In this document: positions 2,281 to 63,563 of the stretch, in pieces
Position numbering within the stretch: position 1 is the first letter of the stretch
Layout: each line of letters starts with the position of its first letter
IMG/VR virus record: IMGVR_UViG_3300033463_000046
Reading direction: 5' to 3' (one strand)
DNA: 64,000 bases
Source: a virus
Lineage: Duplodnaviria; Heunggongvirae; Uroviricota; Caudoviricetes
Made by a program: the position numbers and the translations under genes
The notes under the pieces: model-generated
The model's database searches: none
What the model saw: only the letters and a program-made list of their open reading frames with translations
Told to the model about the DNA's origin: nothing

Positions 2281-2370
2281 TGGTTGGGATAGTAGGATTC
2301 GAACCCACACTTACGCCTTCAGAGGGCTACGGATTTAGAGTCCGCTGTGCTACCATTACACCATATCCCA
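2281..2370 (-). tRNA. suppressor tRNA, anticodon CTA (reads UAG); type II, about 20-nt variable arm; CCA encoded
   Basis: Reverse complement folds as acceptor tgggata/tatccca, D-stem gtgt/gcac, anticodon stem gcgga/tccgt with loop ctCTAaa, long variable arm, T-arm gtggg-ttcgaat-cctac, discriminator a, then cca. Confidence 0.8.
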
Positions 2371-8731: not shown

Positions 8732-10036
8732 ATGAAAGACAAGATTAAAGAGTTTAGAGACAAAAATCCTATATTGGATTTTGCAGCAGGCTTTATCCCA
8801 GGTGTGGGAGAAGCACAAGATGCTCATGATTTTGTACATGCTGCTAAAAAGAAAGACTTTGGAGGAATGGCATTAGCTTCTTTAGGTTTTATTATTCCAG
8901 GTGTAACTGGAGGACAATTCTTGAAGATACTTAGACCACTAACAAAAACATAGTGGGGAGCTTGGGCTGCTAAACATTTAGATGAGTTGTCTACTGTTAG
9001 ACCAAGACTTGCTGAAGGTGTTGCAAAAAATGAACCAGAAGCTGTAAAGATACATAAGACATTAGAAAAAATAGCTGATGGCAAAGTATATATTCCAGAA
9101 AAACGTGGCATTGTTAAAGATATTGACCCAGATACTCCTATTTTACCATTTGTAGATTAGAGAGGATATAACCTTACTCCTGAAGCTAGAGTAAATGCAG
9201 CTTTAGATTACGCTATAAGTACTGAAAAAGGGCGTGCTGTTCCTGGAATAATGGGAGGAGCAAAGGGAGTGCAAGGTGTAGAAGAATTAATACCAGGATT
9301 CCCAGCTTTTAAGAAAATAAATAATGTTAAAACTAGAATGGGACAATTCACTGGTGCTGACATTATTACTGCATTGTATTATAGTGGTCATGGTAAGATA
9401 AGATCTAGTAATGCTATATATGATGCTATTATGAAAGCTCCAGTATCTGGAAATGCTAAAGAATACGCCAAAGCTTAGTTAGAAGTTGTAGAAGGAATAC
9501 TATAGAAATACAGTAAAAACACTGATAAAGTTGGAGTGTTTAAAGCTACTAAATTAGCTAAGAAAGGTAGAGATAATGTTTCAGAAACAGAAAGAGCACA
9601 TTCATATGGTCTAATTCCAGATGAATTAGTTAATCCTAAAACTGATCAAGCTGTTAAAGATAGAATACATTTGGAAGAATCTTTAAACAATTTGAGTATA
9701 TGGTTTGGTTCTAAAAATGGTAATGGTGTTGCAGAATTTTATGGTCCTATTCCAATGAATTTATATTCTGGAAGTTATGGAGGAAAGAAATTTGGAGGTA
9801 GTGGTGATCATAAATTATTTGGATTTAATAATTCTATATTAGTAAAGAATTAGGATGATCTTGCAATACATATTGCTAATTCTAAAGATAAAACTATGGG
9901 ATTGGTAACTGATATTTAGGATGGTGCTGGTGTGACAAATGACGTAATATTCTAGCCATATAGGTATAGTTTAATAAGACAAAAGAAAGGTGGTCGGATT
10001 TGCCTAACTACTTCGAAGAAGCGAGGACCGTTTTAA
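8732..10036 (+). CDS. hypothetical protein carrying 8 in-frame TAG codons (amber read-through gene)
   Basis: Track ORFs 8732-8953, 9251-9478 and 9536-9853 are collinear in one frame, separated only by TAG triplets. The frame runs to TAA at 10034-10036 (1302 nt = 434 codons from 8732). The C-terminal 60 codons are less certain. Confidence 0.5.
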
Positions 10037-15532: not shown

Positions 15533-15960
15533 CTATAATTTATGATGTATGATACGTAGAATTACAGAAGTTCGAGAAACTACTATTTATGTCGGAGACA
15601 AGCTGATAGTAGTGAAAGAAGAAGTCCACACAATTAGGATTCTTCCAGACACACCCGAGGATTAGCTGCATCTTCCTCGTTAAAATCGCGATGTAGCCGC
15701 AGAGATCCGGCACTGGTGTTAAGCGTCCGGTCATTCTTCGACCAGAATTTTCTTTTGAAATAAAGAAGCTGGCAGAGCTCAAAAGAGTGAATGCCTCTAG
15801 GATGGTAACCTGGAGGCTTTTTCTTTGAAAGTCTGATTTTGCTCATAATAGGTTGGAAAAGTTGAGAATTATCTATAATATCGCATGATATATCAATAGA
15901 TAATTTCTCAACTATTCCGGATTCATGTTGAGAACTAAATTAATTAAACGTTTAATTATT

Positions 15961-17190
15961 ATGAATGAAATTTAGAAATTTAAGCAAGGAAGAAAAGTAC
16001 TTTCTGCTAAATTCGGTGACAATTTTAAAAGAGTTGGCACAGCAAGTAATGGTTTATCTGGTATATATTTCAATCCTGACGATAATCAATTATGGAAAGG
16101 TGGATTAACTGGATATAGTAGAATAGGAGATACATATAGTTATTATTCAGGATTAGGAGGAGGTGTTATTAAAGCTTCTGACTACATTGAAAAGCCTAAG
16201 ACAGGAGTTACTACAAGAACTTCTAGTAATCCAGGTGAAATAGTAGTTAATGGTAAAAGATACGCCTCGAAAGCTGATTGGGTAAAAGAACAAAGAGCAC
16301 AAAGAGAACAACAACCATAGGAAGTAGTAATAACTGGTAGGGCTGGTAAAAGATCTGCTTCTAAAGTCACACCAAGAGGTCAGGGATATTGGGATAAACA
16401 ATACCAAGATTTCTTAGGTAAGATGACTGACGATTAGAAAGCGTGGTTAGCATAGAGAGGTATTGATTATAATTCTGCTCAACAAATGCAAACTTATTTA
16501 GCTAATCATGGTCAAGATCTTGGTAAATGGGGTGCTGATGGTAAATGGGCAGGTGCTTCCCAAGCAGCTTGGGATAATTTCGTTGCAACAACAATGAAGA
16601 ATAATCCTTTACAAACTCCTGTAAGAGATCCACAACCTACAGTTGAACCAGTAGTTGATGCTGCAGACCCATTCGGATATAAGACATCTAATCATTATGG
16701 TGATGGCTTTGCTTTAAAGAATATGGGATTCAGTAATTATGCTGGATTACAAAAATTTGCTATGGGTGATGATCAATTTGCTAAAGACTTACGTGAAAGA
16801 TTTGGTCAAGATGTAAGTCAGTGGGATCAAGCAGCTGTAGAAGGCGCATTGAATGTAAGTGGTCGTTATCGTGGTGGTAGAAGTGGCGACTTTGGTGATA
16901 TGGCTCGTAGTATGCAAGATTGGGCTGCTAAGAAAAATGCTGCATATGATCAAAAAGAATTAGCTTCTAGAACTGGTGCAAGTGGTACAACATATTCTTC
17001 TCCAGAAATGATGAAGAAATTTGAGAGTATTAAAATATCCCCAGAAGTTAAATATGGTTAGAGTACTAAGTTTGATTTTAGTAATATGAAGTTTAATTCT
17101 GGATTTGGTAATACTGGCACTAATACTCTTGGAGATGCTGGGGCAGGTACTATGAACAATCAAAAACAATTAGCATATGCGGATAAGTAA
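15961..17190 (+). CDS. peptidoglycan-binding-domain protein with in-frame TAG codons (recoded)
   Basis: One frame from ATG 15961 through track ORF 16486-17061 to TAA at 17188. In-frame TAG at codon 5 and four more. Motif MQTYLANHGQDLGKWGADGKWAGASQAAWDNFV resembles PG_binding_1. Confidence 0.5.
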
Positions 17191-18235
17191 ATTACAATAC
17201 GGAAATTCACTTTTGGAGGCAAGTAATCGACAAAGAGGAAAAGTTCAAGCTTGGGGTAATAGAGGTATTCAGCAAGTTGGTATGCAAGCTAAACAAGCTG
17301 AAGAAGAAGTTATTCAATATAAAAAAGCTACTGCTCGTGCTAATAAGAAGACAAAGACTCCTATGTAGTCAAATAACTTGGCTAAACTTCAAGACCAATT
17401 ATGGAGAATTGGAGCATTCAAAGGAGTTAAAGATAGAAGAGGAAATGAATCTACATACTAGACTGCTGTTGATGGTATCAAAGGTAATATGACCAATACT
17501 GCTATTGCTAATGCTCAGAAAATGGGTTTCACTATTAACAATGATGGTAGTCTTAGTAAGACATCTGATACATCATCAAAAGTCACAAGTACTGCTAAAA
17601 CACCAGAATAGTCTTCTAAAAAGACTAGATTTATGACATCTAGTGGTCCAATGATGCCTGCTCAAGTAATGGCACAAGCTTCAGAAGCTATTGCTAATAA
17701 CAAGACACTACAAAATACTGCAGACTTCTTAGGACATAATCCTGCTGCTATGGCTTTAGAAGATTTAGATAGAGCTACTTCAAACCGTTTAGCTGAATCA
17801 TTATTTGGTATAAGACCTTTCAAAGGTAGAACTGTTACTCGTTTACCTAATCTATAGACTGAGGAATTAAAGAAATAGGTTTTATTTGCTAGAAGTAAAG
17901 GTTAGAATAACTTTAATTCTGATATGTATAAAGCTATGTATGGTTATAATTATGCGTCTCGTAATGGAAAAGGTGGACAAGATAGAAGTGGATTTTGGAA
18001 TAGAATGGATACTCCTACGGGACGTCTTGAGCATACATTAGGTGCTTATGGTTTTTATGTAGATAATAATGGTGACACAATAGTTGAGGATACATACGAT
18101 TTTAATGTTGGACAAAAATAGGGAGGAGATGGAAGATATGCTGTAACCCGTAATTTCTTAGGAGAATTCGGAAGCAAATCTACTGATCCTAACGAGGGTA
18201 AAATCAAATATAGGATTAATTTAGGTAAATTATGA
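17177..18235 (+). CDS. peptidoglycan-binding-domain protein with multiple in-frame TAG codons (recoded)
   Basis: Track ORFs 17177-17368, 17633-17857 and 17924-18121 share one frame and are separated only by TAGs; the frame ends at TGA 18233-18235. LQDQLWRIGAFKG...DGIKGNMTNTAIANAQKMGF is PG_binding_1-like. Confidence 0.5.
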
Positions 18236-18819: not shown

Positions 18820-18892
18820 AGCAGTATAGCTTAGCGGCCTAAAGCGCAGCACTCATAATGCTGAGATCGTAGGTTCGAATCCAACTACTGCT
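18820..18892 (+). tRNA. tRNA with CAT anticodon
   Basis: Acceptor agcagta/tactgct, D gctt-agcggccta-aagc, anticodon arm cagca-ctCATaa-tgctg, T-arm gtagg-ttcgaat-ccaac. Confidence 0.75.
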
Positions 18893-18928
18893 ACGCTTTT
18901 GATTTTTGATAGGTATAGCATAAAAAAA

Positions 18929-18962
18929 GGTAGCCATTCGTGAGAACAGCTACCTTATTTTT
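18929..18962. terminator. bidirectional intrinsic terminator
   Basis: ggtagc-cattcgtgagaaca-gctacc flanked by an A-run upstream and ttattttt downstream. Sits between the convergent tRNA array and the amidase gene. Confidence 0.6.
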
Positions 18963-19556
18963 GTAAGTATTTTAAAATACCTTCAACATGAAGTCTTACA
19001 ATATCTTGAAAACCTCTGTCACTAAGGAGATAATCAACATCTGATTTATTATCTTGGAAGAAGTTTTCAGTAAGAACAGCAGGACAAATAGTATGTTTAA
19101 GAACATATAAATGTGCTTCCTTATCTGGATCTCCATCAGAAAAATCAGTGCGCATTCTTTTATCTTGTGCATTATATTTGGCAGCATTATACAAACAGGT
19201 AGCTAAATCATCTGCTTTTGTTTTACCAGGAGTAGTATAAACTTCCCAGCCTGTTCCAGTGTGCCATTTACCATCTGATGATGCAGCATTAACATGAATA
19301 CTTACATATATGCAATCCCCATATACTTTGCATAAATCATTTACAACCTTACAACGTAGACAAAGTTCCTATGATTGAGTAACATTTAAATCATCATCTT
19401 CAATGTCTATAAATACCTAATAACCATAATCCTATAGGATTGCTTTTACTGCTGCAACAATTTCTCTAGAATAAGCGTATTCTTTAAGTCTTTTGTCTGG
19501 TGAACATTTACCAGGTGTACTTTTTAAATGTGCAGTACCTAAAATAATTGTTTTCA
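18955..19556 (-). CDS. N-acetylmuramoyl-L-alanine amidase (Amidase_3-like endolysin) with 3 in-frame TAG codons
   Basis: Minus-strand ATG at 19556. MKTIILGTAHLKSTPGKCSPDKRLKEYAYSREIVAAVKAIL-x-DYGY-x-VFID...VSIHVNAASSDGKWHTGTGWEVYTTPGKTKADD..., where x marks a TAG. This continues into track ORF 18955-19194 and ends at TAA. Shows the Amidase_3 blocks. Confidence 0.75.
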
Positions 19557-19642
19557 TAGTAAAATAGTTATTTAATTTGTTTAACATAAATCTGAATACT
19601 AAATTAGTCAAAATTGTCTCTAACTAAAAATTATTTATTATT

Positions 19643-19861
19643 ATGATAGGAATTTATGTAATAGGAGTCGTTTTAACATTTATTATATCTATTGCTCTTT
19701 GTCGGTATGATGAAAAAAGATATAATAGCGACATGCAATATGAAATGTGTGCTGCAATCTCTCTATTCTCATGGATAGGATTAATAGGATTAGCAATAGC
19801 ATATAGAAATGAAATAAGAACAGTTCTGAGGACACGTAAGTGTAGCAATGTACCACGTTAA
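19643..19861 (+). CDS. small membrane protein
   Basis: 72 aa with two TM-like segments. Confidence 0.45.
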   Translation: MIGIYVIGVVLTFIISIALCRYDEKRYNSDMQYEMCAAISLFSWIGLIGLAIAYRNEIRTVLRTRKCSNVPR

Positions 19862-20688: not shown

Positions 20689-20714
20689 TAATTTGTGGAT
20701 TAATTCCACAAACA

Positions 20715-21663: not shown

Positions 21664-21900
21664 TTGCTTATGATAGTTATTTATTTGAGTGGTAATCTTT
21701 TAGCCTTATATATGGCTTATAGGATAATACGCCATGAATGTGAATCTGACTTTCATACAAGAGTAGGAATGATTATTGGGATGGCATTCTTTTCTTGGAT
21801 AGCAGTATCTTTAATGCTTACACATTTAAAACTGCATTATAAGTGGGAAATGCAAAGAATGTTAGAAACAGCAATTAAAGAAAAAATTTTACTTCTATAG
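21664..21900 (+). CDS. small membrane protein
   Basis: 78-aa ORF with two TM-like segments. Confidence 0.45.
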   Translation: MLMIVIYLSGNLLALYMAYRIIRHECESDFHTRVGMIIGMAFFSWIAVSLMLTHLKLHYKWEMQRMLETAIKEKILLL

Positions 21901-21906
21901 TAAAGA

Positions 21907-34560: not shown

Positions 34561-35007
34561 ATGAATCCTTGGTCATCTAATTACAAATCGCATCAAGGGA
34601 ATGTAGGATTAGGTAGAGCTATAGCATACTATACAGCTCAATGTGTACCTGTCTTACTCCCACTAAATGATACTTAGAAGTATGATTTAGCAGTCGATAA
34701 AGATGGTAAGTTACAAAGAGTATCTGTAAAGACAACTCAAGGAAAGAATAAAACAGGAACTTATTATACTGTTCAATTAAAGAATAGTGGAGGAGCCTCT
34801 GGAAAGTCTGTTATAAGACATTTCGATAATAGTTCTTGTGATATTTTATTCATTGTAACTGTAGAAGGAACTATGTATGAAATACCTTCCTCTTTAATAA
34901 ATGTTAGTGCTCAACTAACTTTAACTGAAGATTGGGATGATTATATAGTCACATTAGATTGGGGTACGAGTGCTCCTGAGGAAACTCAGGAAGTAGAAGC
35001 AGGCTAA
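34561..35007 (+). CDS. PD-(D/E)XK-type nuclease-like protein with one in-frame TAG (recoded)
   Basis: MNPWSSNYKSHQGNVGLGRAIAYYTAQCVPVLLPLNDT-TAG-KYDLAVDKDGKLQRVSVKTTQGK... The frame reads through TAG at 34675-34677 to TAA at 35005. The G-x-G...YDL...VxVK pattern is typical of Hjc/Mrr-like nucleases. Confidence 0.5.
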
Positions 35008-35865: not shown

Positions 35866-36102
35866 ATGGAGGTAAATAATCGAATTGTAGAAATTCTTAA
35901 AGACAAATTGATGGTTGATGAAATCAGCTCTGATGATAATTTAATAATTGATCTGAAAGCAGATAGTCTTGACATAATCGAGTTAGTCATGGAATTAGAA
36001 CATGAATTTGATATTGTTATCTTAGACGAAGAAGTAGATCCTAACTTTGATAGTGTAGGTCATTTAATAGATTTCATACAAACCAAAGTAAATAACAAAT
36101 AA
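35866..36102 (+). CDS. acpP: acyl carrier protein
   Basis: 78 aa, acidic, with motif DLKADSLDIIELVMELEHEFDIVILDEE containing the phosphopantetheine-attachment DSL. Confidence 0.75.
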   Translation: MEVNNRIVEILKDKLMVDEISSDDNLIIDLKADSLDIIELVMELEHEFDIVILDEEVDPNFDSVGHLIDFIQTKVNNK

Positions 36103-36209
36103 TGGAAAATATAATTAATATTAACGAACCTTGTATTCAAGATCTTATAATCCAGAAAGGAGAATAGGATTTATGTCTTACGACAAAAGATGGTCAAATT
36201 GAGTATAAA

Positions 36210-38168
36210 TTGTTTTTAGGTGACAAAGATTCGGTGATGTTAACTCTCAACTTTGGAGATGTCTCCAGTATAGGTTGGGGTGGTACAGATAACTGGGGTA
36301 AAGATAAGCTTCCTCTATACTTAGAAAGTAATAAAGGTGCTGAGAATTATGACAGTGTATTTGTTGATAATATCACTATTCAGGAGTATGCCGGAGAAGG
36401 AAATTGGTGTAAATGCGAACTTATAAATAAAGGTAAAACGGTTCATTACGTGGCTGTAAACGAAAATCGATTGGATAAGGAACGCGTAGCATATTTCTGG
36501 CATACTACTACTGACTCTGTAGTTAATAATGGATTTAATAAAGGAAAACCAGTTGCAAAGAAATGGTGTGTGACTGTTATTCAAAATCCAGGAAAAGCAC
36601 AAGAATAGCCAAAAGAAGAAGAAAAGAAAGTTGATCTCGGAAAATATCTTTATTCAGTAGGATTATTATCGGATTTACATATTTGTAAAGCTAATAATAA
36701 TGATTCGTTAAACTGGTGGGATGAAGATGACTTTAAGAGAGCAATGAATTTATATGTAAATGATAAAAATATTAAGTTTATTGCATCTTGTGGTGATATT
36801 TCCGAAGCACAAACTAATGATAATATTAAACACCCAGAATCAACAGCAGAAACTGATTATGCTGAGTTTACAGAAATGTATGATGTACCTTATTGGCAAG
36901 TAGCAGGATTAAGATTCTTTAGTCCATTAGGTAATCATGATTTCTATGGAATGTTTGAAGGTAGACAAGGAGACACAATAACTAAAAAGAAAAACTCAGA
37001 AACTATAAACGGTTACAATGCTGGAGTAAAAGAACGTATAGGTAATTGGATTACAGGACAACAAATAAATGGAATTGTTCCAGGTAGAGGAAGAATTCAA
37101 TTTGAACTTGAGAATGGTAAGAGTACTGCAAATGGTCAAGCAGATATGAGATTCTTCTCATATAACGATTATGTAGACTTGTACGCAAAAGAAAATGGTT
37201 ATACAGGTTCAATATGGGATTCTTCTAAAGGTGGAATATCTGACAAAGCAATCGAAACTGCAAAGAAATATGTCAATAGTAATTGGAATAAAGTAAAAGA
37301 CAATTTAACTATGTGGAATGATGGCGGAGGTCACGGTCGTAATGGTTATTCTAAATTAAACTATTGGATGAAAAAAGACAATGATATTTACATATTCTTA
37401 TCAGTAGATTATGGCGATGATATATGGGGCATTAAAAGTGGTTGGCATGATAGAATGATTCATGCAAGAACTATTATTAATCTTAATGAAGATGATCCAT
37501 ATGTCAAGAGAATGAAAGAGTATGTTGGAGATACTGGTTATTCAAAAGCTGATGAAGCTTATAACTATCAGTATTATAGTCCTAACACTCTTATATGGTT
37601 GAAGGAACTTCTTGAGAATAATAAGGATAAGAAGATTTACATCTTCACTCATCACTTTATGCCTAATCGTGTTGGTAATGGTGTTGGACTTGCTAAAGAT
37701 GGAAATTGGTATTACTCTGTAATCAATCCTGATGGAGTAAAAGAGAATGGTTATAATAAGGGATCTAATGCATTAACTGGTATTGAGTTCTGGTTTATTG
37801 ATAAGCTTATGAATCAATATAATAATGTGATATGGTTCAGTGGTCATTCTCATATAAGTTTTGCATCTGGTGCTAACTTTGATAATCATGATTACTCTAT
37901 AGTAAATCCATCTGAGAAAAGTGAATATGTATATACTAAGAGTAATACAATTCCAACTAAAGAATCAGCATGGTGTGTAGCACTTCCATCACTTTCTAAA
38001 CCAAGAGGTATTGATAATGGTCAATCAGTAAGACATTATGAAGATGCTGAAATGGGTATTATGGAAGTATATGAGAAAGGTGTTAAGATAAAAGGATATA
38101 AAATCCGAGAAAATAACAAAGATGTCAACGAGTTACTTGTTGAAAAAGAAATTCAATTAATCAATTAA
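36210..38168 (+). CDS. calcineurin-like metallophosphoesterase with N-terminal extension; one in-frame TAG (recoded)
   Basis: Track ORFs 36210-36608 and 36744-38168 are in the same frame (534 nt apart), joined through TAG 36606-36608. The connecting segment encodes GLLSDLHI (motif I). Downstream: GNHDF and GHSH motifs. Confidence 0.6.
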
Positions 38169-50708: not shown

Positions 50709-50780
50709 CTGGCCCTTTGTGTAATGGTTAGCACACGGGACTTTGACTCCCGTAGTACAGGTTCGAATCCTGTAGGGCCA
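50709..50780 (+). tRNA. tRNA-Gln (TTG)
   Basis: Acceptor tggccct/agggcca (U1-A72), D gtgt-aatggtta-gcac, anticodon arm cggga-ctTTGac-tcccg, T-arm acagg-ttcgaat-cctgt. Confidence 0.85.
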
Positions 50781-50827
50781 ACGTTCTGTTTGAACATAGG
50801 TTTTAAGTTTTTAGTTATTTATTTGCG

Positions 50828-54839: not shown

Positions 54840-54987
54840 ACCCTATGGCTATTATCCGGAATTCTCGATAAGATGAAAATGGAGGTTGGCTAACCTAATA
54901 ATAGTACAGGCCGTAAGGTGACAATAGGAGGGAATAATGTATTGGAAGCATGGACATTTGAACCTCCTATTTTTAACTAAATTTATT

Positions 54988-55416
54988 ATGGCAGAAATAT
55001 CTTGCTACACAGATGGCGCTTATAGCCCACTTCGAGACAAAGGCGGAATCGGAATAGTATTTGTAAAAAATGGTAATGTGATTCACAAATTTAGTAAGAT
55101 GTTTGAAAAAACAACTAACAATAAATGTGAAATCATGGCTGTAATTTATGCTTTACATGCTATTAGCAAACCCATTGACAAATTAACTATTTATTCGGAT
55201 TCCCAGTACGTAATTGGATGCGCTACTCTAGGATGGAAGCGAAAAAAGAATCCAGAATATTGGGCTCTATATGATAGGACTTTAGAAAAGGCTAAAGGCT
55301 TTTGTCCGAATATCGAGTTTAAGTGGGTTCGTGGTCATACATCTAACAAAGATTTCGATTCTCAGATGAATGATTTAGCCGATAAATTAGCAGTAGAAGC
55401 CAGTAACGAAATTTAA
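54988..55416 (+). CDS. rnhA: ribonuclease H (RNase HI)
   Basis: MAEISCYTDGAY...GIGIVF...CEIMAVIYAL...IYSDSQYV...VRGHTSNKDFDSQMNDLADKLA: DEDD catalytic residues in RNase H order. The internal ATG was chosen over the track start 54937. Confidence 0.75.
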   Translation: MAEISCYTDGAYSPLRDKGGIGIVFVKNGNVIHKFSKMFEKTTNNKCEIMAVIYALHAISKPIDKLTIYSDSQYVIGCATLGWKRKKNPEYWALYDRTLEKAKGFCPNIEFKWVRGHTSNKDFDSQMNDLADKLAVEASNEI

Positions 55417-55418
55417 TT

Positions 55419-55532
55419 ATGAAAGCAAAAAACAGAATGAAGTATCTCATTGGTAAACAGAACTGGTGGGATAAATTACCTAAAGATGTTCAAGCCGCAA
55501 CTACCCGTCCAGGATCAGTTAAGACAGCATGA
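55419..55532 (+). CDS. hypothetical small protein (37 aa)
   Basis: Short ORF. Confidence 0.25.
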   Translation: MKAKNRMKYLIGKQNWWDKLPKDVQAATTRPGSVKTA

Positions 55533-55681
55533 TTTGGTTCTTAGTCCTATTAGTAATTATACTATTGGCTGGAAAAGTTTTCTTCGATGTGAAGTTTGAC
55601 TTTAAGAAACAGTATGGTGTTATCTGGTATTCTTATAAGGGTAAGAGAGACGGGCTCGTATTATGGGGATCTAAGTACTAA
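55529..55681 (+). CDS. small membrane protein (50 aa)
   Basis: MIWFLVLLVIILLAGKVFF... Confidence 0.3.
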   Translation: MIWFLVLLVIILLAGKVFFDVKFDFKKQYGVIWYSYKGKRDGLVLWGSKY

Positions 55682-55683
55682 CT

Positions 55684-56148
55684 ATGACTACCATTAGGAA
55701 GTTAGTAAATGATTTGAACACTCTTTGTGACAGATTAGATGAAGATTATAATATTAACTATGGTGGTTGTTGTTTTGTTGCGTACATTCTAATGAAGAAT
55801 TTTGAATCTATTGGTATAAATCCTATTCTAGTAATAGAAAGTGATTGTAATGAAATCGATGGAGGAGAATTTCTTGATAAAGTACATGATAGAAATACAG
55901 AGTGTAGTGGCTTAGGTTTTAACACTTGCTATCATTACTTCGTATCAATTCCGAAAATTGGTTATGTAAATGCTGGAGATTATTGTAGAGATAGTCTTAA
56001 CAAATTTAGAGGTTTATCTTCTAAAGATGTTCAATGGATTTACAAAACTGGTGATTGGAATAGTTGTTATGAAACAAAAAACAACGCTATGGTTGGTAGA
56101 AGAATTAAACAAGTCTTCCGAAAATATGAGGACTTATTTAAAGGATGA
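55684..56148 (+). CDS. hypothetical protein
   Basis: 154-aa ORF. Confidence 0.55.
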   Translation: MTTIRKLVNDLNTLCDRLDEDYNINYGGCCFVAYILMKNFESIGINPILVIESDCNEIDGGEFLDKVHDRNTECSGLGFNTCYHYFVSIPKIGYVNAGDYCRDSLNKFRGLSSKDVQWIYKTGDWNSCYETKNNAMVGRRIKQVFRKYEDLFKG

Positions 56149-56383
56149 TGAGGTAGTCGGTGTAAATGATAAATTTATATATCATATTGAAACATATGTA
56201 ACTTGGAAAGGTGGAGTTGCTCTTTTTGATGAGAAATGGTATTCGACTGATAAACCATTAAAGTTTAAGAAGAAAGACAATGTCTTAAAAAGGAAAAAGT
56301 ATAAGTTATTCAGAATAGTTACACTTGATTACGCACCTCAGAGCTATTTAGAAAGAAATGGGTATTATGAAGATAAATGGTAA
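56126..56383 (+). CDS. hypothetical protein
   Basis: Internal ATG (MRTYLKDDEVVGVNDKF...) of track ORF 55970-56383. Confidence 0.4.
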   Translation: MRTYLKDDEVVGVNDKFIYHIETYVTWKGGVALFDEKWYSTDKPLKFKKKDNVLKRKKYKLFRIVTLDYAPQSYLERNGYYEDKW

Positions 56384-56690
56384 AACTTATTTAATAATAT
56401 CTGCCATTCTGATAGCTTCATTCTTACTGGGTTACGTCTTAGGGTGCAATAAAAAACCTAAAGAAATCGTTGTACCTTCCACTCCTGTGACGATAATCAA
56501 AGATTCTATAATCAGAGAAGAAATCGTTAAGGAGAATGAAGTTATCAAATGGAAGATAAAAGACGCCAAAAAACAGTATGATAAAGAGGTATCTATTATT
56601 CTGTCTAATACTGATAGTGCCAATCTTATCTATTTCTCAGACTACGTCCGACAGTATCAAAATCAGCACGGAGCAATTAAGAGTGACTAA
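56358..56690 (+). CDS. membrane-anchored hypothetical protein
   Basis: 110 aa with an N-terminal TM segment. Confidence 0.5.
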   Translation: MGIMKINGKTYLIISAILIASFLLGYVLGCNKKPKEIVVPSTPVTIIKDSIIREEIVKENEVIKWKIKDAKKQYDKEVSIILSNTDSANLIYFSDYVRQYQNQHGAIKSD

Positions 56691-56937
56691 CTTGATATTT
56701 GCAGAGCATAGCAAATTATCTAAGGAAAATACTCTTCTTAAATCTCAAATTGTTAATCTTGAAAAGGTTGATAGTATTTGGGTACATACTGATTCTGTTC
56801 GTAGAGAACAAATAACTCAGTATGCTACTGTTGTAAAACAGCAAGAGAATCAAATTAAAAAGGTTAAAAAATGGTCTAGAATCAAAGATTACGTAATTGG
56901 TGGACTAACTATTCTTAGTGTATGCCTGTTATTGTAA
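56578..56937 (+). CDS. hypothetical membrane protein
   Basis: 119 aa; overlaps the previous ORF in another frame. Confidence 0.4.
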   Translation: MIKRYLLFCLILIVPILSISQTTSDSIKISTEQLRVTNLIFAEHSKLSKENTLLKSQIVNLEKVDSIWVHTDSVRREQITQYATVVKQQENQIKKVKKWSRIKDYVIGGLTILSVCLLL

Positions 56938-57091
56938 ATTTTAAAGACAAAGATGGTTTTAGATATAAACATCCTGAACGTAGTTGTAAACGTTGCACAA
57001 AGTATCCATGTCTGCCAAAAATGAGTTTACTCAATGGGGATTTTGCTGCATATGGTTGTACTATGTTTGAGGATAATAATACCTTTGAAGT

Positions 57092-57409
57092 ATGACCGAA
57101 GTTACTTATCATGTTAAGTTTCTTGCGGAAAGTATGGATTGTATGAATTATCATTCATATGTTTTTGAGAATCTTGATTATACTGATTGGGATAACCATT
57201 ATATAATGTGTGTAAGATTTCCAAATTGGGATCAAGCACCATTTAATATTGGTGATGTTGGTTTTCTTAATGTAAGGTATGTAGAAGCAGGAATTGATAA
57301 ATGGTTTGATGGAAAAGACTTCAATTTTTATCGCTATACTAATGTAATATTTATGAAATTTATATTAGAAAAACCAATGGTGATAACGAATGAAGTTATT
57401 TTAGATTAA
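57092..57409 (+). CDS. hypothetical protein
   Basis: 105-aa ORF. Confidence 0.5.
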   Translation: MTEVTYHVKFLAESMDCMNYHSYVFENLDYTDWDNHYIMCVRFPNWDQAPFNIGDVGFLNVRYVEAGIDKWFDGKDFNFYRYTNVIFMKFILEKPMVITNEVILD

Positions 57410-57453
57410 AAATTTAAAGATAATAATTATGACGTAAAAAGAGAAAGTAATTT

Positions 57454-58323
57454 ATGGCTAATATTTTAGGCGAAAAATTAAAGGAGAAGTTAGCTGAAAA
57501 AGCAAACGACATTACTACTTATGTATGGAAAGGACCAAAGGTTAATGGAGTTCAAGAAGAAGTAAAGCTTATTGACGCAAGTTTTGAGCAACTTCAGAAA
57601 TATTATGAGCATTGTGAACAAATGCTTTATAATACTGATTCTAAGAATCCAGGTCGTGTAACCTTACAGAAGATCGTTGATGACCAAATACAAAGATGTC
57701 GTGCAGAACTTCTTATCAGATGGCTTCGTTCCGAGAAGCATTATACTAATACTAGTTGTTTAGAAGATTTAAAGAATATTATTCATAACAATCGTGAGGT
57801 ATTCACAAATGAATCCATAAAGGTTATTCCTATTAGCGAAGTTATGAGTGGTCTTCCAATTGAATTCGAGAGAATTCCAATTAGTCTAGTTATGGATGCT
57901 TGTCTTGATTCGCTTGGTCAATTCGATAATTCTCATTTAACTCTTAGTTTCATTGTTAAGATGGGCTTATGGTTTACTAACCAAGAGATGCAAAAGGATT
58001 TATATCGTAAAGACCCTGTGACTGGCAAGGCAATGAACCGTCTGGAGATCGTTAGCAAGGAACTTCGTTTGAATCCTTCTATAGTTCTTAAGGTTAGTGA
58101 CACTGGACTTACTTATGCTGAGTTCCGTTCTATGTGTCGTCTTAAGAGAGATAAGTATGCTAATCTAACTAGCGATCAATTAAGACTACTATCTAACAAA
58201 GTATTATACCGATTCCAAGATCAGTGTGCTAAACAGGCACAGCAATGGCTGGATAAGGAAGAGGAAATTAAGAAGGTCGCTGAGTCTAAAGGCTGGGATG
58301 TTACCCGTGCCGTAGATGCGTGA
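57454..58323 (+). CDS. hypothetical protein
   Basis: 289-aa ORF. Confidence 0.6.
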   Translation: MANILGEKLKEKLAEKANDITTYVWKGPKVNGVQEEVKLIDASFEQLQKYYEHCEQMLYNTDSKNPGRVTLQKIVDDQIQRCRAELLIRWLRSEKHYTNTSCLEDLKNIIHNNREVFTNESIKVIPISEVMSGLPIEFERIPISLVMDACLDSLGQFDNSHLTLSFIVKMGLWFTNQEMQKDLYRKDPVTGKAMNRLEIVSKELRLNPSIVLKVSDTGLTYAEFRSMCRLKRDKYANLTSDQLRLLSNKVLYRFQDQCAKQAQQWLDKEEEIKKVAESKGWDVTRAVDA

Positions 58324-59590
58324 TCTATTCGAGCCTATTTCTCGGGATGAGAGGCAGGCAGAATCAGTTCGAAAGTGGTTAAAAGCTAAAGGCAGAGGAA
58401 CTCTCGAGTGTTGTACAGGATATGGTAAAACTCGTTGTGCTTTTATTATTATAAAGAAAGTACTATCTCGCTATCCTAATTTAAAGATATGGGTGGTAGT
58501 TCCTACAGAGCTTTTAAAGAAGCAGTGGGAAAAATTGATAGAAGAAAATCAATTACAATTCAGCGTTGAAGTATATATTATAAACTCCGCTGCAAAAAAT
58601 GGAGGACAATGTGATTTTCTTATTATTGATGAAATACATACAGCAGGGGCAAACCTGCTGATTCAAGTATTTGAAACGATCAAATACAAATTAATCCTCG
58701 GCCTTACTGCTACTTTCGAAAGATTAGACGAACGACATAAACTTATTGCTAAATATTGTCCTATAGTTGATACTGTAACACTTCAAGAAGCACAATTGAA
58801 TGGTTGGGTATCTAACTATAAAGAGTATCTGGTATTGATTGATGTAGAAGATATTAATGTTTACCAAGACTATAACAAGCAATTCACAGAGCATTTTGAA
58901 TTCTTTAACTATGATTTCAATTTAGCAATGAGTATGTTAGGTCCGCAAGGTTTTAAGAAAAAGATTGAATATAGGGATGAGTTGTGTAAGGATAATCCTG
59001 ATATGAAGTCTGAAATACTTAAAGCTATTACGTACCACGCAAATGGTTTTATTAGAGCCATACAAAATCGTAAAAAGTTCGTCTATGAACATCCAGAAAA
59101 AATCCGATTAACACAAGAGATTATTAACCATCGTCCCAATAGTAAGATTGTAACCTTTTCAGCAAATACTAAGATGGCTGAAGCTATTGGTGTAGGGTAT
59201 ATCTATACAGGCAAAGAAGGTAAAAAGAAGAATCGTATAACTCTTCAGGAGTTTTCTGCTATGCCTAGCGGAGTTCTTAATACCTGTAAACTTGCTGAAG
59301 CTGGTATGGATATACCTGGATTGTCAGTCGGAATAATGTTAGGAGTTAATTCTAGCGAGACAAAAGCACAACAAACAAGAGGACGTATCATAAGAAAAGA
59401 AGGTGATAAGGAAGCTGAATATTTTACCCTTGTAATTAATGATACAATAGAAAGTAAATGGTGGCAGAACTCTCATAAAAACGATACTAACATTATTAAA
59501 ATTGATTCTGAGAATCTAATTAAAGTTCTCAATGGAGAACCATATGAAACTTACACAAAGAAATTAAAGAATTACACTTATCGATTTTAA
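58316..59590 (+). CDS. superfamily-2 DNA/RNA helicase (DEAH-like)
   Basis: Motif I CCTGYGKT, motif II FLIIDEIHTAG, motif III LTATFER. Confidence 0.7.
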   Translation: MRDLFEPISRDERQAESVRKWLKAKGRGTLECCTGYGKTRCAFIIIKKVLSRYPNLKIWVVVPTELLKKQWEKLIEENQLQFSVEVYIINSAAKNGGQCDFLIIDEIHTAGANLLIQVFETIKYKLILGLTATFERLDERHKLIAKYCPIVDTVTLQEAQLNGWVSNYKEYLVLIDVEDINVYQDYNKQFTEHFEFFNYDFNLAMSMLGPQGFKKKIEYRDELCKDNPDMKSEILKAITYHANGFIRAIQNRKKFVYEHPEKIRLTQEIINHRPNSKIVTFSANTKMAEAIGVGYIYTGKEGKKKNRITLQEFSAMPSGVLNTCKLAEAGMDIPGLSVGIMLGVNSSETKAQQTRGRIIRKEGDKEAEYFTLVINDTIESKWWQNSHKNDTNIIKIDSENLIKVLNGEPYETYTKKLKNYTYRF

Positions 59591-59593
59591 ATT

Positions 59594-59821
59594 ATGGAGA
59601 CTTATTATACTAAAAAGGAATATAATGAGATGAAATCCATACTCAATCGTAAGCTCAAAGCTGCTGAAAAGAAACTTACTGCTGCTGAGAAGGAAAATGA
59701 ACTTCTTAAGACACAGGTTAAAGGTTTAGAGCAGAAAATCCATGACCTTGAGTATCCTCTTGAGGTAACAGTGGACTTAGAAGAGCCTACAGAGGAGGAG
59801 ACCCACGTAACCGAAGAATAA
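59594..59821 (+). CDS. small coiled-coil protein
   Basis: 75-aa ORF. Confidence 0.45.
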   Translation: METYYTKKEYNEMKSILNRKLKAAEKKLTAAEKENELLKTQVKGLEQKIHDLEYPLEVTVDLEEPTEEETHVTEE

Positions 59822-59886
59822 GTTCGTAACTGACGCAAACTTTTCGGTGTATAGAGATTAGTTAATAATCATTTAAATCTATACAC

Positions 59887-60492
59887 GTGAGGAATTTAGA
59901 AATTGAACAGCAACTCATATTCTGTGAGAAATATAGTATTAATCCCAGTGAGTTGTTACTACTGGAAATTATTCTGCTAGCTCAAGAGGACGATGATCCT
60001 GAGCTAGTCCAATTATATTTTAAATCTCGTATGTGTGCTCGTGGTAGCACAATAGATCTTTTACAAGGTTTGCAAGATGCAGGCGTAATACTTAAGACAT
60101 ATAAAATCCCTGAGAAGGGACAAAAGTTTGACATATTCTCAGTACCTATCAATAAGAATTTAGTGAAAGATTTTCACAAAAGTTCTTTTGAAATGGGAGA
60201 AGAACTGTTTGAGAATTATCCACTCTCTACAGTTGTCAATGGTCTTGAGTATAAATTACGAAGAATTAGTAAGAAGTTTGATTCTCTTGAAGATGCTTAT
60301 AGAGCATATGGTAAAGCTATTAGGTGGAAACCTGAAGCCCATGAGAGAGTACTCGAACTTATAAAGCAGGGCAAGGAGAATGGTTATCAATTTACTAATC
60401 TGGGAGACTTTATAGTTGACCACGATTGGTTAAATATGGAAGCCATTTCTAAAGATGGTGTCATGTCTAACTCTAATATGACCATGCTATGA
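59887..60492 (+). CDS. hypothetical protein (replication module)
   Basis: 201-aa ORF immediately upstream of the DnaB-like helicase. Confidence 0.5.
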   Translation: MRNLEIEQQLIFCEKYSINPSELLLLEIILLAQEDDDPELVQLYFKSRMCARGSTIDLLQGLQDAGVILKTYKIPEKGQKFDIFSVPINKNLVKDFHKSSFEMGEELFENYPLSTVVNGLEYKLRRISKKFDSLEDAYRAYGKAIRWKPEAHERVLELIKQGKENGYQFTNLGDFIVDHDWLNMEAISKDGVMSNSNMTML

Positions 60493-61577: not shown

Positions 61578-61578
61578 T

Positions 61579-62846: not shown

Positions 62847-62851
62847 TCATT

Positions 62852-63544: not shown

Positions 63545-63563
63545 TAAATAATACTCCCTAGTA

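What the first reader, a model, noticed from the sequence alone, without database searches (positions are those of the whole stretch)
18955..19556. Amber (TAG) codons read as sense: endolysin gene interrupted by three in-frame TAGs
The minus-strand Amidase_3-like gene has a single continuous frame from ATG 19556 to TAA 18955. That frame contains three TAG triplets, in the stretch AIL-x-DYGY-x-VFID...TQS-x-ELC. The conserved Amidase_3 blocks (GTAHL.., SIHVNAA.., GTGWEVYTT) lie on both sides of the TAGs. The gene is therefore only functional if TAG is translated. Recoded and standard-code genes coexist in this window: the replication and early-type genes terminate with TAA/TGA and lack internal TAG.
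Basis: partly seen in the sequence, partly recalled or inferred. Interest (0 to 1): 0.85.

Follow-up and report, generated by a model that had tools for sequence, protein, structure and literature searches.

The report
Amber-recoded phage endolysin gene
A large gut-type phage writes its cell-wall-cutting enzyme with three TAG "stop" codons that its own suppressor tRNA reads as glutamine; this is a known phage trick for delaying lysis, but the tRNA itself carries an unusual extra arm that copies the glutamine anticodon loop.

Summary
It matches Amidase_3 end to end only when TAG is read through.

- Only TAG interrupts coding frames in this window, never TGA.
- Six genes carry 25 internal TAGs, while the replication genes carry none.
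- The amidase is under strong purifying selection across the TAG region (dN/dS 0.08).
- The window encodes a tRNA with a CUA anticodon and a tRNA-Gln-like body.
- TAG aligns mainly with Gln in orthologues, including a direct TAG/CAG swap.
- In recoded genes CAG is depleted, as if TAG had replaced it.

This is genetic code 15 recoding of late and lysis genes, already described for Lak, crAss-like and other phages. It is a new member of a known kind.

One side lead may be new. The suppressor tRNA belongs to a phage family with a long variable arm. The loop of that arm carries a near-invariant YUGA motif, which copies the Gln anticodon plus A37. The motif may restore recognition by the glutamine-charging enzyme. 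I found no description of it.

The parts
18954..19557 (-). Endolysin gene: N-acetylmuramoyl-L-alanine amidase (Amidase_3), 200 codons plus TAA, with three in-frame TAGs at 19434-19432, 19419-19417 and 19371-19369.
   Evidence: Pfam, full length only with read-through; PHROG 435 endolysin, E 2.6e-40; homologues and solved relatives 3QAY, 7RAG; dN/dS 0.077 against the L088 orthologue.
18917..18956 (-). Intrinsic-terminator-like hairpin and T run directly after the TAA of the amidase.
   Evidence: 13-pair stem with 5 G-C pairs, followed by TTTTTAT.
2281..2370 (-). Suppressor tRNA with anticodon CUA, 90 nt. It has a tRNA-Gln-like body (U1-A72, G2-C71, G3-C70, G10, and the same D arm as the window's tRNA-Gln(UUG)). 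It also has a 20-nt variable arm that forms a 3-bp hairpin with loop CUCUGAA.
   Evidence: Rfam tRNA, 64.2 bits; minimum-energy fold is a cloverleaf plus variable-arm hairpin.
8732..10036 (+). Recoded gene of unknown function, 434 codons, 7 in-frame TAGs.
   Evidence: (coding score 0.39 in this frame, negative or near zero in the other five).
15925..17190 (+). Recoded gene of unknown function, 421 codons, 5 in-frame TAGs. Metagenomic homologues carry TAGs at other positions.
17177..18235 (+). Recoded gene of unknown function, 352 codons, 7 in-frame TAGs. A weak PG_binding_1-like stretch is present.
34561..35007 (+). Recoded PD-(D/E)XK endonuclease-like gene, 1 in-frame TAG at codon 39.
   Evidence: phrog_5018 match spans the TAG; PDDEXK_5, E 5.8e-12.
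36102..38168 (+). Recoded 688-codon gene with 2 in-frame TAGs. Orthologues at 60-65% identity carry TAGs at other positions.
21670..21903 (+). Small membrane-protein gene that ends ...LLL-TAG-TAA. The orthologue in L088 ends ...LLL-CAG-TAA.
   Evidence: a direct TAG/CAG (Gln) equivalence.
50710..50782 (+). Ordinary tRNA-Gln(UUG) of the phage, used for comparison with the suppressor.
54937..64000 (+). Replication module: RNase H, SF2 helicase, DnaB-like helicase, AAA_24 ATPase and neighbours. None has an internal TAG.

Best explanation
The window is part of a large phage genome with 34 tRNA genes and a tmRNA; its closest relatives are in gut and rumen metagenomes, and its endolysin relatives infect Bacteroidota. 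The phage uses genetic code 15 (TAG = glutamine) for a subset of its genes.

The endolysin is an Amidase_3 zinc amidase. Its predicted metal and catalytic residues H10 and E26 lie upstream of the three TAGs, and H88 and E165 lie downstream. An active enzyme is therefore made only when all three TAGs are translated.

The decoder is the phage's own tRNA(CUA) at 2281-2370. Its body resembles tRNA-Gln, and it is presumably charged with Gln by the host machinery.

Genes readable in the host's standard code, such as the replication genes, contain no internal TAG. So the amidase and the other TAG-bearing genes can be made only once the suppressor is present and competing with release factor 1. With three TAGs, the yield rises roughly as the cube of suppression efficiency. 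That makes a threshold gate on lysis.

Shown here: the in-frame TAGs, homology across them, purifying selection, the suppressor gene, the TAG/Gln equivalence, and the split between TAG-bearing and TAG-free genes.

Inferred: the charging enzyme, the timing of expression, and the lysis-gating role. That role is the published hypothesis of Borges et al.
For: 1. Reading through TAG restores a full-length enzyme.
- Pfam Amidase_3 matches profile positions 1-173 of 174 with read-through, against 66-173 for the largest piece.
- The protein matches PHROG 435, endolysin.
- In the alignment to the solved amidase 7RAG, H10, E26, H88 and E165 fall on the GH, E, SIHxNA and E motifs.

2. Homologues are continuous across the TAG sites.

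3. Only TAG is involved.
- The window has 18 TAG, 0 TGA and 2 TAA in coding-like contexts.
- Among 86 amidase homologue loci, 13 carry in-frame stops: 33 TAG, 0 TGA, 0 TAA. The Lak phages are among them.

4. The gene is under purifying selection.
- dN/dS against the 83.5%-identical orthologue in L088 is 0.077 overall and 0.043 for codons 1-63.
- The TAG at codon 42 is conserved although synonymous sites are near saturation.

5. The decoder is present.
- The tRNA(CUA) scores 64 bits against the Rfam tRNA model.
- It has U1-A72 and the same D arm as the phage tRNA-Gln(UUG).
- In six relatives the only tRNA in 20 kb is a tRNA(CUA) lying 1.7-4 kb upstream of the recoded amidase. The two relatives whose amidase has no TAG have no such tRNA.

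6. TAG means Gln.
- The window's TAG corresponds to CAG in the orthologue at 21898-21900.
- A BLOSUM62 tally over TAG columns in four gene families gives Q 22.5, K 8.2, E 7.6 and L -45.
- Across 124 loci, TAG in genomes with the long-arm tRNA pairs with Q in 85 of 187 non-TAG cases, mostly CAA, which is two mutations away. L accounts for 8 and S for 4.
- Gln codons in recoded genes are CAA 68, CAG 8 and TAG 25. In standard genes they are CAA 147, CAG 108 and TAG 0 (Fisher p = 1e-7).

7. The genes split into two classes. Six genes carry 25 internal TAGs, and the replication genes carry none, also in relative L092.

8. The published description of the same behaviour is read. The title and abstract of the paper reporting metaproteomic confirmation were seen.
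Against: - There is no protein-level evidence for this phage.
- The host is unknown, so a host that itself reads TAG as sense is not formally excluded.
- The three TAG sites in the amidase fall at variable surface positions (K/R/Q/E/N in relatives). The residue inserted there is therefore inferred statistically and from other genes.
- The suppressor has a long variable arm that no canonical tRNA-Gln has. Its nearest GenBank match is a jumbo-phage tRNA-Leu(CAA) at 75% identity.
- No RF2, GlnRS or amidotransferase gene was found among the ORFs I scanned in the window. The scan was not exhaustive, and the genome extends beyond the window.
- The temporal class (early or late) of the genes is assumed from function, not measured.
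Confidence: 0.9

Rival explanations
1. The amidase is a decaying pseudogene hit by three nonsense mutations, and the real endolysin lies elsewhere in the genome.
For: Three stops within 22 codons would normally indicate a dead gene under code 11.
Against: - All three stops are TAG, as are all 33 in-frame stops found in 13 homologue loci.
- There are no frameshifts.
- dN/dS is 0.077 overall and 0.043 in the stretch containing the stops.
- Codon 42 is TAG in both the window and L088 despite near-saturated synonymous divergence.
- Codon usage in the frame is coding-like.
- A matching suppressor tRNA is encoded in the window.
Confidence: 0.02
2. TAG is translated, but as an amino acid other than glutamine. 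Leu, Ser or Tyr are suggested because the suppressor has a type-II-like long variable arm and A73. Pyrrolysine is suggested because ARAGORN labels the gene tRNA-Pyl. Lys is suggested by the aligned residues.
For: - The tRNA has a long variable arm and discriminator A73, and is 75% identical to jumbo-phage tRNA-Leu(CAA).
- In relatives L007-L012, two TAGs align with Leu in sister sequences.
- The window's three amidase TAGs align mostly with K or R.
Against: - In genomes carrying the long-arm tRNA, TAG pairs with Q in 85 of 187 non-TAG cases. L accounts for 8, S for 4, Y for 6 and K for 26.
- The BLOSUM tally puts Q far ahead.
- There is a direct TAG/CAG swap with an orthologue.
- CAG is depleted in recoded genes.
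- The tRNA has U1-A72 and a tRNA-Gln D arm.
- Most family members have G73 with U1-A72 or an A1/C72 mismatch. This is the Gln-type acceptor end, not the Leu type.
- tRNA-Pyl hallmarks are absent: a 3-nt variable loop, a 6-bp anticodon stem, and G1-C72 with G73.
Confidence: 0.05
3. The whole genome, or its host, reads TAG as sense at all times. There would then be no code switch, and the TAG-free genes would simply lack TAG by chance or by codon bias.
For: The host is unknown. Near-terminal TAGs occur in five otherwise TAG-free genes.
Against: - About 6,900 codons of standard-class genes contain 255 CAA or CAG codons and no TAG. By contrast, 25 of 101 Gln codons in the six recoded genes are TAG.
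- The same split is seen in relative L092.
- The amidase's nearest characterised relatives infect Bacteroides, Porphyromonas and Prevotella. Per Borges et al., the hosts predicted for recoded phages (Firmicutes and Bacteroidetes) use the standard code.
- The phage carries its own suppressor.
Confidence: 0.05
4. A sequencing or assembly artefact, or a programmed frameshift, explains the stops.
For: None specific.
Against: - The gene is one continuous frame.
- Independent contigs from other samples carry TAGs in the same gene family, and one carries a TAG at the same codon.
- Five other genes in the window show the same pattern.
Confidence: 0.01

Closest known systems
Genetic code 15 (TAG to Gln) recoded phages: Lak, crAss-like, Garnet, Amethyst, Jade, Sapphire and Agate clades (Borges et al., bioRxiv 10.1101/2021.08.26.457843; Peters et al., PMC9523058)
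   Same: - In-frame TAG is confined to a subset of genes that includes the lysis amidase.
- Replication genes are in standard code.
- The phage encodes a tRNA(CUA).
- TAG aligns with Gln.
- Recoded modules are scattered through a large genome, as described for Jade, Sapphire, Agate and Lak.
- The Lak endolysin homologues also carry an in-frame TAG.
   Different: - Clade membership was not determined, because no terminase lies in the window.
- There is no nucleotide match to any GenBank phage around the amidase.
- The closest GenBank contig, MT836666.1, is only 69.5% identical over the replication module.
- The suppressor lies 16.6 kb from the amidase. In six relatives it lies 1.7-4 kb upstream.
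Amidase_3 (PF01520) endolysins, e.g. CD27L catalytic domain (PDB 3QAY), CwlD (7RAG), and Bacteroides phage endolysins (PQ571269.1, ON453897.1)
   Same: - Full-length profile match.
- Conserved GH, E, SIHxNA and E motifs.
- 45-49% identity to annotated endolysins of Bacteroides and Porphyromonas phages.
   Different: - The gene is written with three TAG codons.
- It is a single-domain protein with no cell-wall-binding domain.
- It sits alone on the minus strand inside a plus-strand tRNA array.
E. coli supE-type amber suppressor (tRNA-Gln with anticodon CUA) and the known tendency of GlnRS to charge CUA-anticodon tRNAs (review PMC9976931)
   Same: A tRNA-Gln body with a CUA anticodon. U35 is kept and G36 is lost. 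The acceptor end is Gln-type.
   Different: The phage tRNA carries a 20-nt variable arm whose loop repeats the Gln anticodon loop. No canonical tRNA-Gln has a long variable arm, and 27 of 27 ordinary tRNA-Gln genes in the same phage loci are short.
Jade-phage 'code change module' (suppressor tRNA, aaRS and release factor upstream of the lysis cassette; Borges et al.)
   Same: In six relatives the suppressor tRNA sits just upstream of the recoded amidase, in the same orientation.
   Different: No synthetase or release factor was found among the ORFs scanned in the window. Here the tRNA neighbours a GroEL-like chaperonin gene, an arrangement conserved in L104 and L109 (the L184 locus ends within the gene).
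Anticodon-loop mimics that bind aminoacyl-tRNA synthetases, e.g. the thrS mRNA operator (review PMC9976931)
   Same: A hairpin loop displays the cognate anticodon sequence outside a real anticodon arm.
   Different: Here the mimic sits inside a tRNA, in its variable arm. It would serve charging rather than translational repression, and no binding has been shown.
Zeta crAss-like phages with both TAG and TGA suppressor tRNAs (PMC12386605)
   Same: - A second suppressor (tRNA-UCA, 38944-39016) is present although TGA is not used as a sense codon in the window.
- Terminal TAGs are followed shortly by another stop.
   Different: In the Lera phage and its close relatives described there it is TGA that is recoded; here it is TAG.

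Membership tests
Amidase_3 (PF01520) N-acetylmuramoyl-L-alanine amidase / phage endolysin | Profile match above the curated cut-off over the whole domain. | tested here: met
   68.8-72.3 bits against a cut-off of 27, covering profile positions 1-173 of 174, when TAG is read through. PHROG 435 endolysin, E 2.6e-40.
Amidase_3 (PF01520) N-acetylmuramoyl-L-alanine amidase / phage endolysin | Zinc ligands His, Glu and His plus a catalytic Glu, as known for the family. | tested here: met
   in the alignment to 7RAG, H10, E26, H88 and E165 fall on the conserved GH, E, SIHxNA and E positions. The assignment of roles rests on established knowledge of the family.
Amidase_3 (PF01520) N-acetylmuramoyl-L-alanine amidase / phage endolysin | Peptidoglycan-cleaving and lytic activity. 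| not testable with these tools
   Requires a zymogram or lysis assay.
Genetic code 15 recoded phage (TAG = Gln) | In-frame TAG, and only TAG, in conserved protein-coding genes. | tested here: met
   18 TAG, 0 TGA; 33 TAG, 0 TGA, 0 TAA in amidase homologues.
Genetic code 15 recoded phage (TAG = Gln) | TAG positions correspond to glutamine in homologues. | tested here: met
   TAG/CAG swap; Q ranks first; Q is the commonest partner, 45-53% of non-TAG partners; CAG depleted where TAG is used.
Genetic code 15 recoded phage (TAG = Gln) | Phage-encoded suppressor tRNA with anticodon CUA. | tested here: met
   Relatives.
Genetic code 15 recoded phage (TAG = Gln) | Recoding concentrated in late or lysis genes, with early or replication genes readable in standard code. 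| tested here: met
   Four of the six recoded genes have no assigned function, and the temporal class is inferred from function only.
Genetic code 15 recoded phage (TAG = Gln) | Gln found at TAG positions in the proteins. | not testable with these tools
   Requires proteomics. This has been done for other code-15 phages (PMC9523058; abstract seen).
Bacterial tRNA-Gln (identity set as in E. coli; PMC9976931) | Weak first pair U1-A72, with G2-C71 and G3-C70. | tested here: met
   In the 33-member family, pair 1-72 is U-A in 15 and non-standard in 14; the sequences show these are mostly A1 opposite C72.
Bacterial tRNA-Gln (identity set as in E. coli; PMC9976931) | Anticodon U35 and G36. | tested here: not met
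   The anticodon is CUA: U35 is kept and G36 is replaced by A. A YUGA copy sits in the variable-arm loop instead.
Bacterial tRNA-Gln (identity set as in E. coli; PMC9976931) | Short (4-5 nt) variable loop, i.e. a type I tRNA. | tested here: not met
   The variable region is 20 nt and forms a hairpin. Ordinary phage tRNA-Gln genes are short in 27 of 27 cases.
Bacterial tRNA-Gln (identity set as in E. coli; PMC9976931) | Discriminator G73. | tested here: inconclusive
   The window tRNA has A73, as does the window's own tRNA-Gln(UUG). About two thirds of the long-arm family have G73.
tRNA-Pyl / pyrrolysine system | 3-nt variable loop, 6-bp anticodon stem, G1-C72 with G73, and pylS/pylBCD genes. 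| tested here: not met
   One search shows a 20-nt variable arm, a 5-bp anticodon stem, U1-A72 and A73. The hallmarks are listed in PMC7609411. No Pyl gene was seen among the scanned ORFs.
Type II tRNA (Leu, Ser or Tyr) amber suppressor | Long variable arm together with insertion of Leu, Ser or Tyr at TAG. | tested here: not met
   The long arm is present. However, TAG pairs with L in 8, S in 4 and Y in 6 of 187 cases, against Q in 85. The first pair is U1-A72 rather than G1-C72.

The most novel reading that the evidence does not exclude
The suppressor that decodes these TAGs belongs to an undescribed structural class of phage tRNA. It is a tRNA-Gln(CUA) with a long variable arm whose hairpin loop is a copy of the glutamine anticodon loop.

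In the window the arm's loop is CUCUGAA and the real anticodon loop is CUCUAAA. Across the family the loop carries Y-U-G-A, equivalent to positions 34-37.

The proposal is that this second 'anticodon' is read by the enzyme that recognises the Gln anticodon (GlnRS, or a non-discriminating GluRS). That would restore the G36 identity element, which a CUA anticodon necessarily loses, and would make the host charge the suppressor efficiently with Gln.

Facts in hand:
- In 33 diverse members, U and G of the motif are invariant and A is present in 32 of 33. All three stem pairs show compensatory changes.
- The motif occurs in 39 of 43 long-arm CUA tRNAs that begin with U or A, against 9 of 90 other long-arm tRNAs.
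- Ordinary tRNA-Gln genes in the same loci never have the arm (0 of 27).
- No long-arm UCA suppressors were found.
- Genomes with this tRNA read TAG as Gln.
- Seven literature searches found no description (and within-paper searches).

What is not shown is any contact with a synthetase. GlnRS is a class I enzyme and in its known binding mode leaves the variable region facing solvent, so the geometry is an open problem.
Probability: 0.35. Interest if true: 0.8.

Novelty: new member of a known kind. Interest (0 to 1): 0.42.

Why it matters
The finding as stated adds one more large phage lineage to the known list of phages that write lysis and other late genes in code 15. The practical consequence is that standard-code annotation of this genome would miss or truncate at least six genes, including the endolysin.

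The wider value lies in the decoder. Borges et al. left open how a host synthetase is made to charge a CUA suppressor with glutamine efficiently enough to change the code of an infected cell.

A conserved copy of the Gln anticodon loop inside the suppressor's variable arm is a concrete and cheaply testable candidate answer. If it works, it would also be a natural design principle for engineering efficient amber suppressors.

Tried and rejected
- **Close relatives of the TAG-rich ORFs.** I looked for close relatives of 17177-18235 and 8732-10036 in IMG/VR and found none. A tblastn search of all three TAG-rich ORFs (these two and 15925-17190) against GenBank phages also found nothing. Their reality as genes therefore rests on codon usage. 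For 15925-17190 it also rests on two metagenomic homologues.
- **Synteny around the amidase in L007-L016.** I hoped to use it for codon-level comparison. The flanks are not syntenic; only the amidase and the tRNA are shared.
- **Megablast of 15-25 kb against GenBank phages.** No match.
- **TAG as a true stop with a back-up stop.** I considered this for the five genes with near-terminal TAG. It is weakened by the TAG/CAG correspondence with L088. Near-terminal TAGs are better seen as positions tolerated under either code, and a similar observation is already published.
- **TGA also recoded.** I considered this because a tRNA-UCA is present. There are no in-frame TGAs in coding-like contexts.
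- **Leu or Ser identity for the long-arm suppressor.** I considered this after the match to jumbo-phage tRNA-Leu(CAA). It is rejected by the residue tally.
- **Analogous anticodon mimic in TGA suppressors.** No long-arm UCA tRNAs were found, so the idea does not generalise and the control is uninformative about mechanism.
- **The variable-arm hairpin as the real anticodon arm, with the CUA arm as an insertion.** Rejected: the hairpin stem is only 2-6 bp, while the CUA arm has the canonical 5-bp stem and 7-nt loop.
- **RF2, GlnRS and amidotransferase.** None was seen in the window's larger ORFs. Small ORFs were not scanned.
Full report
**1. The observation**

Reading the minus strand of 18800-19700 shows an ATG at 19557-19555 and a TAA at 18956-18954. 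The correct frame gives a 200-residue protein with exactly three internal stops:

MKTIILGTAHLKSTPGKCSPDKRLKEYAYSREIVAAVKAIL*DYGY*VFIDIEDDDLNVTQS*ELC...SIHVNAA...GTGWEVYTT...LTENFFQDN...

All three stops are TAG, at 19434-19432, 19419-19417 and 19371-19369. A strong terminator-like hairpin with a T run starts at the TAA.

With TAG as X the protein matches Pfam Amidase_3 from profile position 1 to 173 of 174 (68.8 bits). With Q it scores 72.3 bits. The largest standard-code piece covers only profile positions 66-173 (49 bits), and the N-terminal piece matches nothing. The protein also matches PHROG 435, 'endolysin', at E 2.6e-40.

The alignment to the solved amidase 7RAG puts H10 and E26 upstream of the TAGs and H88 and E165 downstream. 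These fall on the family's GH, E, SIHxNA and E motifs. No fragment could therefore be a complete enzyme.

**2. More than chance, and only TAG**

The window has 17 TAA/TGA-free stretches of at least 200 codons that contain TAG. In 100 dinucleotide shuffles the mean was 0.44 and the maximum 2.

I trained a codon-usage score on 15 TAG-free genes. With it, in-frame stops whose 50-codon flanks both look coding number 18 for TAG, 0 for TGA and 2 for TAA. The two TAAs are real gene junctions, and three of the TAGs lie antisense to one highly biased gene.

Six genes carry 25 internal TAGs:

| Gene | Strand | Internal TAGs | Note |
|---|---|---|---|
| 8732-10036 | + | 7 | unknown function |
| 15925-17190 | + | 5 | unknown function |
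| 17177-18235 | + | 7 | unknown function |
| 18954-19557 | - | 3 | amidase |
| 34561-35007 | + | 1 | PD-(D/E)XK endonuclease-like |
| 36102-38168 | + | 2 | unknown function |

Each scores as coding in the TAG-bearing frame and not in the other five frames.

The replication genes have no internal TAG. These are RNase H, an SF2 helicase, a DnaB-like helicase and an AAA_24 ATPase. The same holds for their orthologues in the closest GenBank contig, MT836666.1.

**3. Homologues**

A tblastn search against GenBank phages finds 134 records, and 98 of them cover at least 80% of the protein in a single piece. The best annotated hits are endolysins of Bacteroides and Porphyromonas phages (45-49% identity) and the Lak megaphages (44-47%).

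IMG/VR holds closer relatives at 69-75% identity (L007-L014) and 59-60% (L015, L016). One metagenome contig, L088, carries an 83.5%-identical orthologue in partly conserved synteny.

Across 86 homologue loci, 13 have in-frame stops: 33 TAG, no TGA and no TAA. The Lak copies are among them.

Between the window and L088, dN/dS is 0.077 for the whole gene and 0.043 for codons 1-63. The TAG at codon 42 is shared although synonymous sites are close to saturation. This excludes a pseudogene.

**4. The decoder**

ARAGORN finds 34 tRNA genes and a tmRNA in the window. Among them are a tRNA with anticodon CUA at 2281-2370 on the minus strand and one with anticodon UCA at 38944-39016. Rfam confirms both as tRNAs.

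The CUA tRNA begins with U1-A72, G2-C71 and G3-C70. Its D arm is GUGUAAUGGUAGCAC, the same as the phage's own tRNA-Gln(UUG) apart from one fewer U in the D loop. It is the only other tRNA in the window that starts with U.

In six of the close amidase relatives, the only tRNA in 20 kb is a tRNA(CUA). All six begin with U and have A at position 73, and they lie 1.7-4 kb upstream of the recoded amidase in the same orientation. The two relatives whose amidase has no TAG have no such tRNA.

**5. Which amino acid**

The three amidase sites are variable (K/Q/E/R, K/Q/R/T/N and K/R/N in relatives), so they do not settle it alone. Other evidence does.

- The gene 21670-21903 ends LLL-TAG-TAA where its L088 orthologue ends LLL-CAG-TAA.
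- In 15925-17190 and its two homologues, TAG stands opposite Q at the columns where the partners agree.
- A BLOSUM62 tally over the TAG columns of four families gives Q 22.5, K 8.2, E 7.6, S -2.2 and L -45.
- An all-against-all comparison of ORFs from 124 loci kept only the best frame and well-aligned contexts. Results are in the table below.
- In the window's recoded genes the Gln codons are CAA 68, CAG 8 and TAG 25. In standard genes they are CAA 147, CAG 108 and TAG 0 (Fisher p = 1e-7). TAG seems to have taken the place of CAG.

| Loci carrying | TAG pairs with TAG | Q | K | E | L | S |
|---|---|---|---|---|---|---|
| Long-arm U1 tRNA(CUA) | 383 | 85 (65 CAA, 20 CAG) | 26 | 18 | 8 | 4 |
| Short-arm tRNA(CUA) | 451 | 311 of 588 non-TAG partners | 40 | 59 | 23 | 9 |

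CAA is two substitutions from TAG, so the excess of Q reflects amino-acid equivalence and not mutational proximity. TAG is glutamine.

**6. What is known**

This is the behaviour described by Borges et al..
- TAG-to-Gln recoding occurs in Lak, crAss-like and six 'gemstone' clades.
- Suppressor tRNAs are encoded by the phages.
- Replication genes are often in standard code.
- Structural and lysis genes are recoded, and an amidase is among the few families significantly biased to TAG.
- In Jade phages a suppressor-containing 'code change module' sits upstream of the lysis cassette.

Metaproteomics has confirmed code 15 in crAss-like phages (PMC9523058; abstract seen).

Two further features of the window are also already reported, for Zeta crAss-like phages. 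One is a second suppressor (UCA) that is not visibly used. The other is terminal TAGs followed shortly by another stop.

The finding is therefore a new member of a known kind. The lysis-timing role remains the published hypothesis and is not shown here.

**7. A side lead: the suppressor's variable arm**

The tRNA is 90 nt long because its variable region has 20 nt (AGCCCUCUGAAGGCGUAAGU). Its minimum-energy fold is a cloverleaf plus a 3-bp hairpin with loop CUCUGAA. That loop equals the tRNA's real anticodon loop, CUCUAAA, except for G in place of A at the position equivalent to 36. It is therefore the anticodon loop of tRNA-Gln(CUG).

I scanned IMG/VR with a pattern that fixes only the CUA anticodon loop, the T arm and the spacing between them. 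It returned 104 stretches, mostly on contigs of 80-415 kb.

- Of 54 distinct long-arm CUA tRNAs, 43 start with U or A. Of these, 39 carry YUGA in the variable region.
- By comparison, 2 of 9 that start with G carry it, and 9 of 90 long-arm tRNAs with other anticodons carry it.
- In an alignment of 33 members, U and G of the motif are invariant and A is present in 32. No other position of the variable region is conserved.
- All three stem pairs show compensatory changes, with 89% of cells paired.
- Loop size (4-7 nt) and stem length (2-6 bp) both vary, but YUGA stays in the loop.
- The variable position of the motif (C or U) is the one that differs between natural Gln isoacceptors. The fixed positions (U35, G36) are major GlnRS determinants (PMC9976931).
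- Ordinary tRNA-Gln genes in the same loci are all 72-77 nt long (27 of 27).
- Short-arm CUA suppressors also exist, sometimes in the same genome, so the arm is not obligatory.
- The same pattern for UCA suppressors returned no tRNA.
Two are ~160-kb contigs binned into Mollicutes and Erysipelotrichaceae MAGs and are probably phage; the third was not identified.

I found no description of this arm in seven literature searches or in the recoding papers I read. Borges et al. explicitly leave open how the suppressor gets glutaminylated.

The most economical reading is an anticodon-loop mimic that restores the identity element lost with G36. I rate this at about one in three. The reason is geometry: GlnRS in its known binding mode does not face the variable region, and nothing here shows binding.

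**8. Verdict**

- The mechanism is phage-encoded tRNA-Gln(CUA) suppression of TAG in an Amidase_3 endolysin and at least five other genes (confidence 0.9).
- The phenomenon is known.
- The variable-arm Gln-anticodon mimic is the part worth a bench test.

Noticed in passing
window 2281-2370 (-); also L011 8183-8272 and the pattern-scan loci L093-L196 (e.g. L097, L104, L109): The CUA suppressor belongs to a phage tRNA family with a Gln-like body and a long variable arm. The hairpin loop of that arm carries a near-invariant YUGA motif, a copy of the Gln anticodon plus A37. The stem covaries. Ordinary tRNA-Gln genes never have the arm.
   Followed up: yes
window 38944-39016 (+): A tRNA with anticodon UCA (opal suppressor type; C at position 33, A73, D arm resembling the Arg and Lys tRNAs). 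No in-frame TGA occurs in any coding-like context in the window. A similar 'unused second suppressor' is reported for Zeta crAss-like phages.
   Followed up: partly
window 20299-20691, 21670-21903, 28597-28872, 51065-51436, 52928-53482 (+): Five otherwise TAG-free genes have a single TAG within their last 8 codons, twice as TAG-TAA in tandem. In 21670-21903 the TAG corresponds to CAG in the L088 orthologue. Near-terminal TAGs seem to be tolerated under either code.
   Followed up: yes
window-wide; recoded genes listed under parts: CAG is strongly depleted in recoded genes (8 of 101 Gln codons) compared with standard genes (108 of 255). This looks as if TAG arose mainly from CAG by C-to-T change.
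   Followed up: yes
window 48804-49171 (+): A phage-encoded tmRNA (Rfam 73 bits; tag peptide GKNNVSFAITSYRVAA) sits inside the tRNA-rich region. It could matter for rescuing ribosomes stalled or terminated at TAG.
   Followed up: no
window 14833-14924 (+); similar in L136 and L195: A 92-nt tRNA-like gene that ARAGORN calls Ala(GGC). It contains a perfect Lys(UUU)-type anticodon stem-loop (UCGGG-CUUUUAA-CCCGA) preceded by an extra insertion. Rfam does not call it at the gathering threshold. Similar two-hairpin tRNAs occur in other phage contigs.
   Followed up: no
window 11333-11408 (+) and 29838-29912 (+): Two irregular tRNA calls. One has anticodon AUU and a mismatched acceptor stem and is found by ARAGORN only. 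The other is found by Rfam only.
   Followed up: no
window 1-1458 (-), 1455-1808 (-), 2420-2788 (-): The suppressor tRNA is the only tRNA on the minus strand. It sits in a minus-strand block with a GroEL-like chaperonin (Cpn60_TCP1, E 3.8e-72). The chaperonin-tRNA arrangement is conserved in L104 and L109; in L184 the locus ends within the gene (82-95% identity).
   Followed up: partly
window 19643-19861 (+) and 18232-18528 (+): Two small TAG-free ORFs flank the amidase, each with two predicted membrane helices. The 72-residue one has a basic C-terminus and a weak Phage_holin_3_1 hit (E 0.046). It is a holin candidate, divergently oriented from the amidase.
   Followed up: partly
L102, L108, L130, L144, L190, L192 (IMG/VR contigs): Other phage CUA suppressors have G1 and Ser-, Leu- or Tyr-like type II bodies without the YUGA motif. 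They might insert an amino acid other than Gln at TAG. The tally had only TAG-TAG pairs for them.
   Followed up: no
L101, L120, L136, L151, L195: Type-II-like tRNAs (long variable arm, Ser/Tyr-like D arm) that carry the Trp anticodon CCA.
   Followed up: no
L004 and L005 (Lak-C1, Lak-B5 endolysin homologues); L029, L031, L047: Endolysin homologues in Lak megaphages and in three further IMG/VR contigs also carry 1-5 in-frame TAGs at positions different from the window's. This indicates repeated independent recoding of this gene family.
   Followed up: partly
window 43390-44487 (+), 31017-32990 (+), 24804-26012 and 27512-28600 (+): Auxiliary genes in standard code: an adenylosuccinate synthetase-like protein, a 657-residue SPFH/Band 7 protein and two AAA ATPases.
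   Followed up: no
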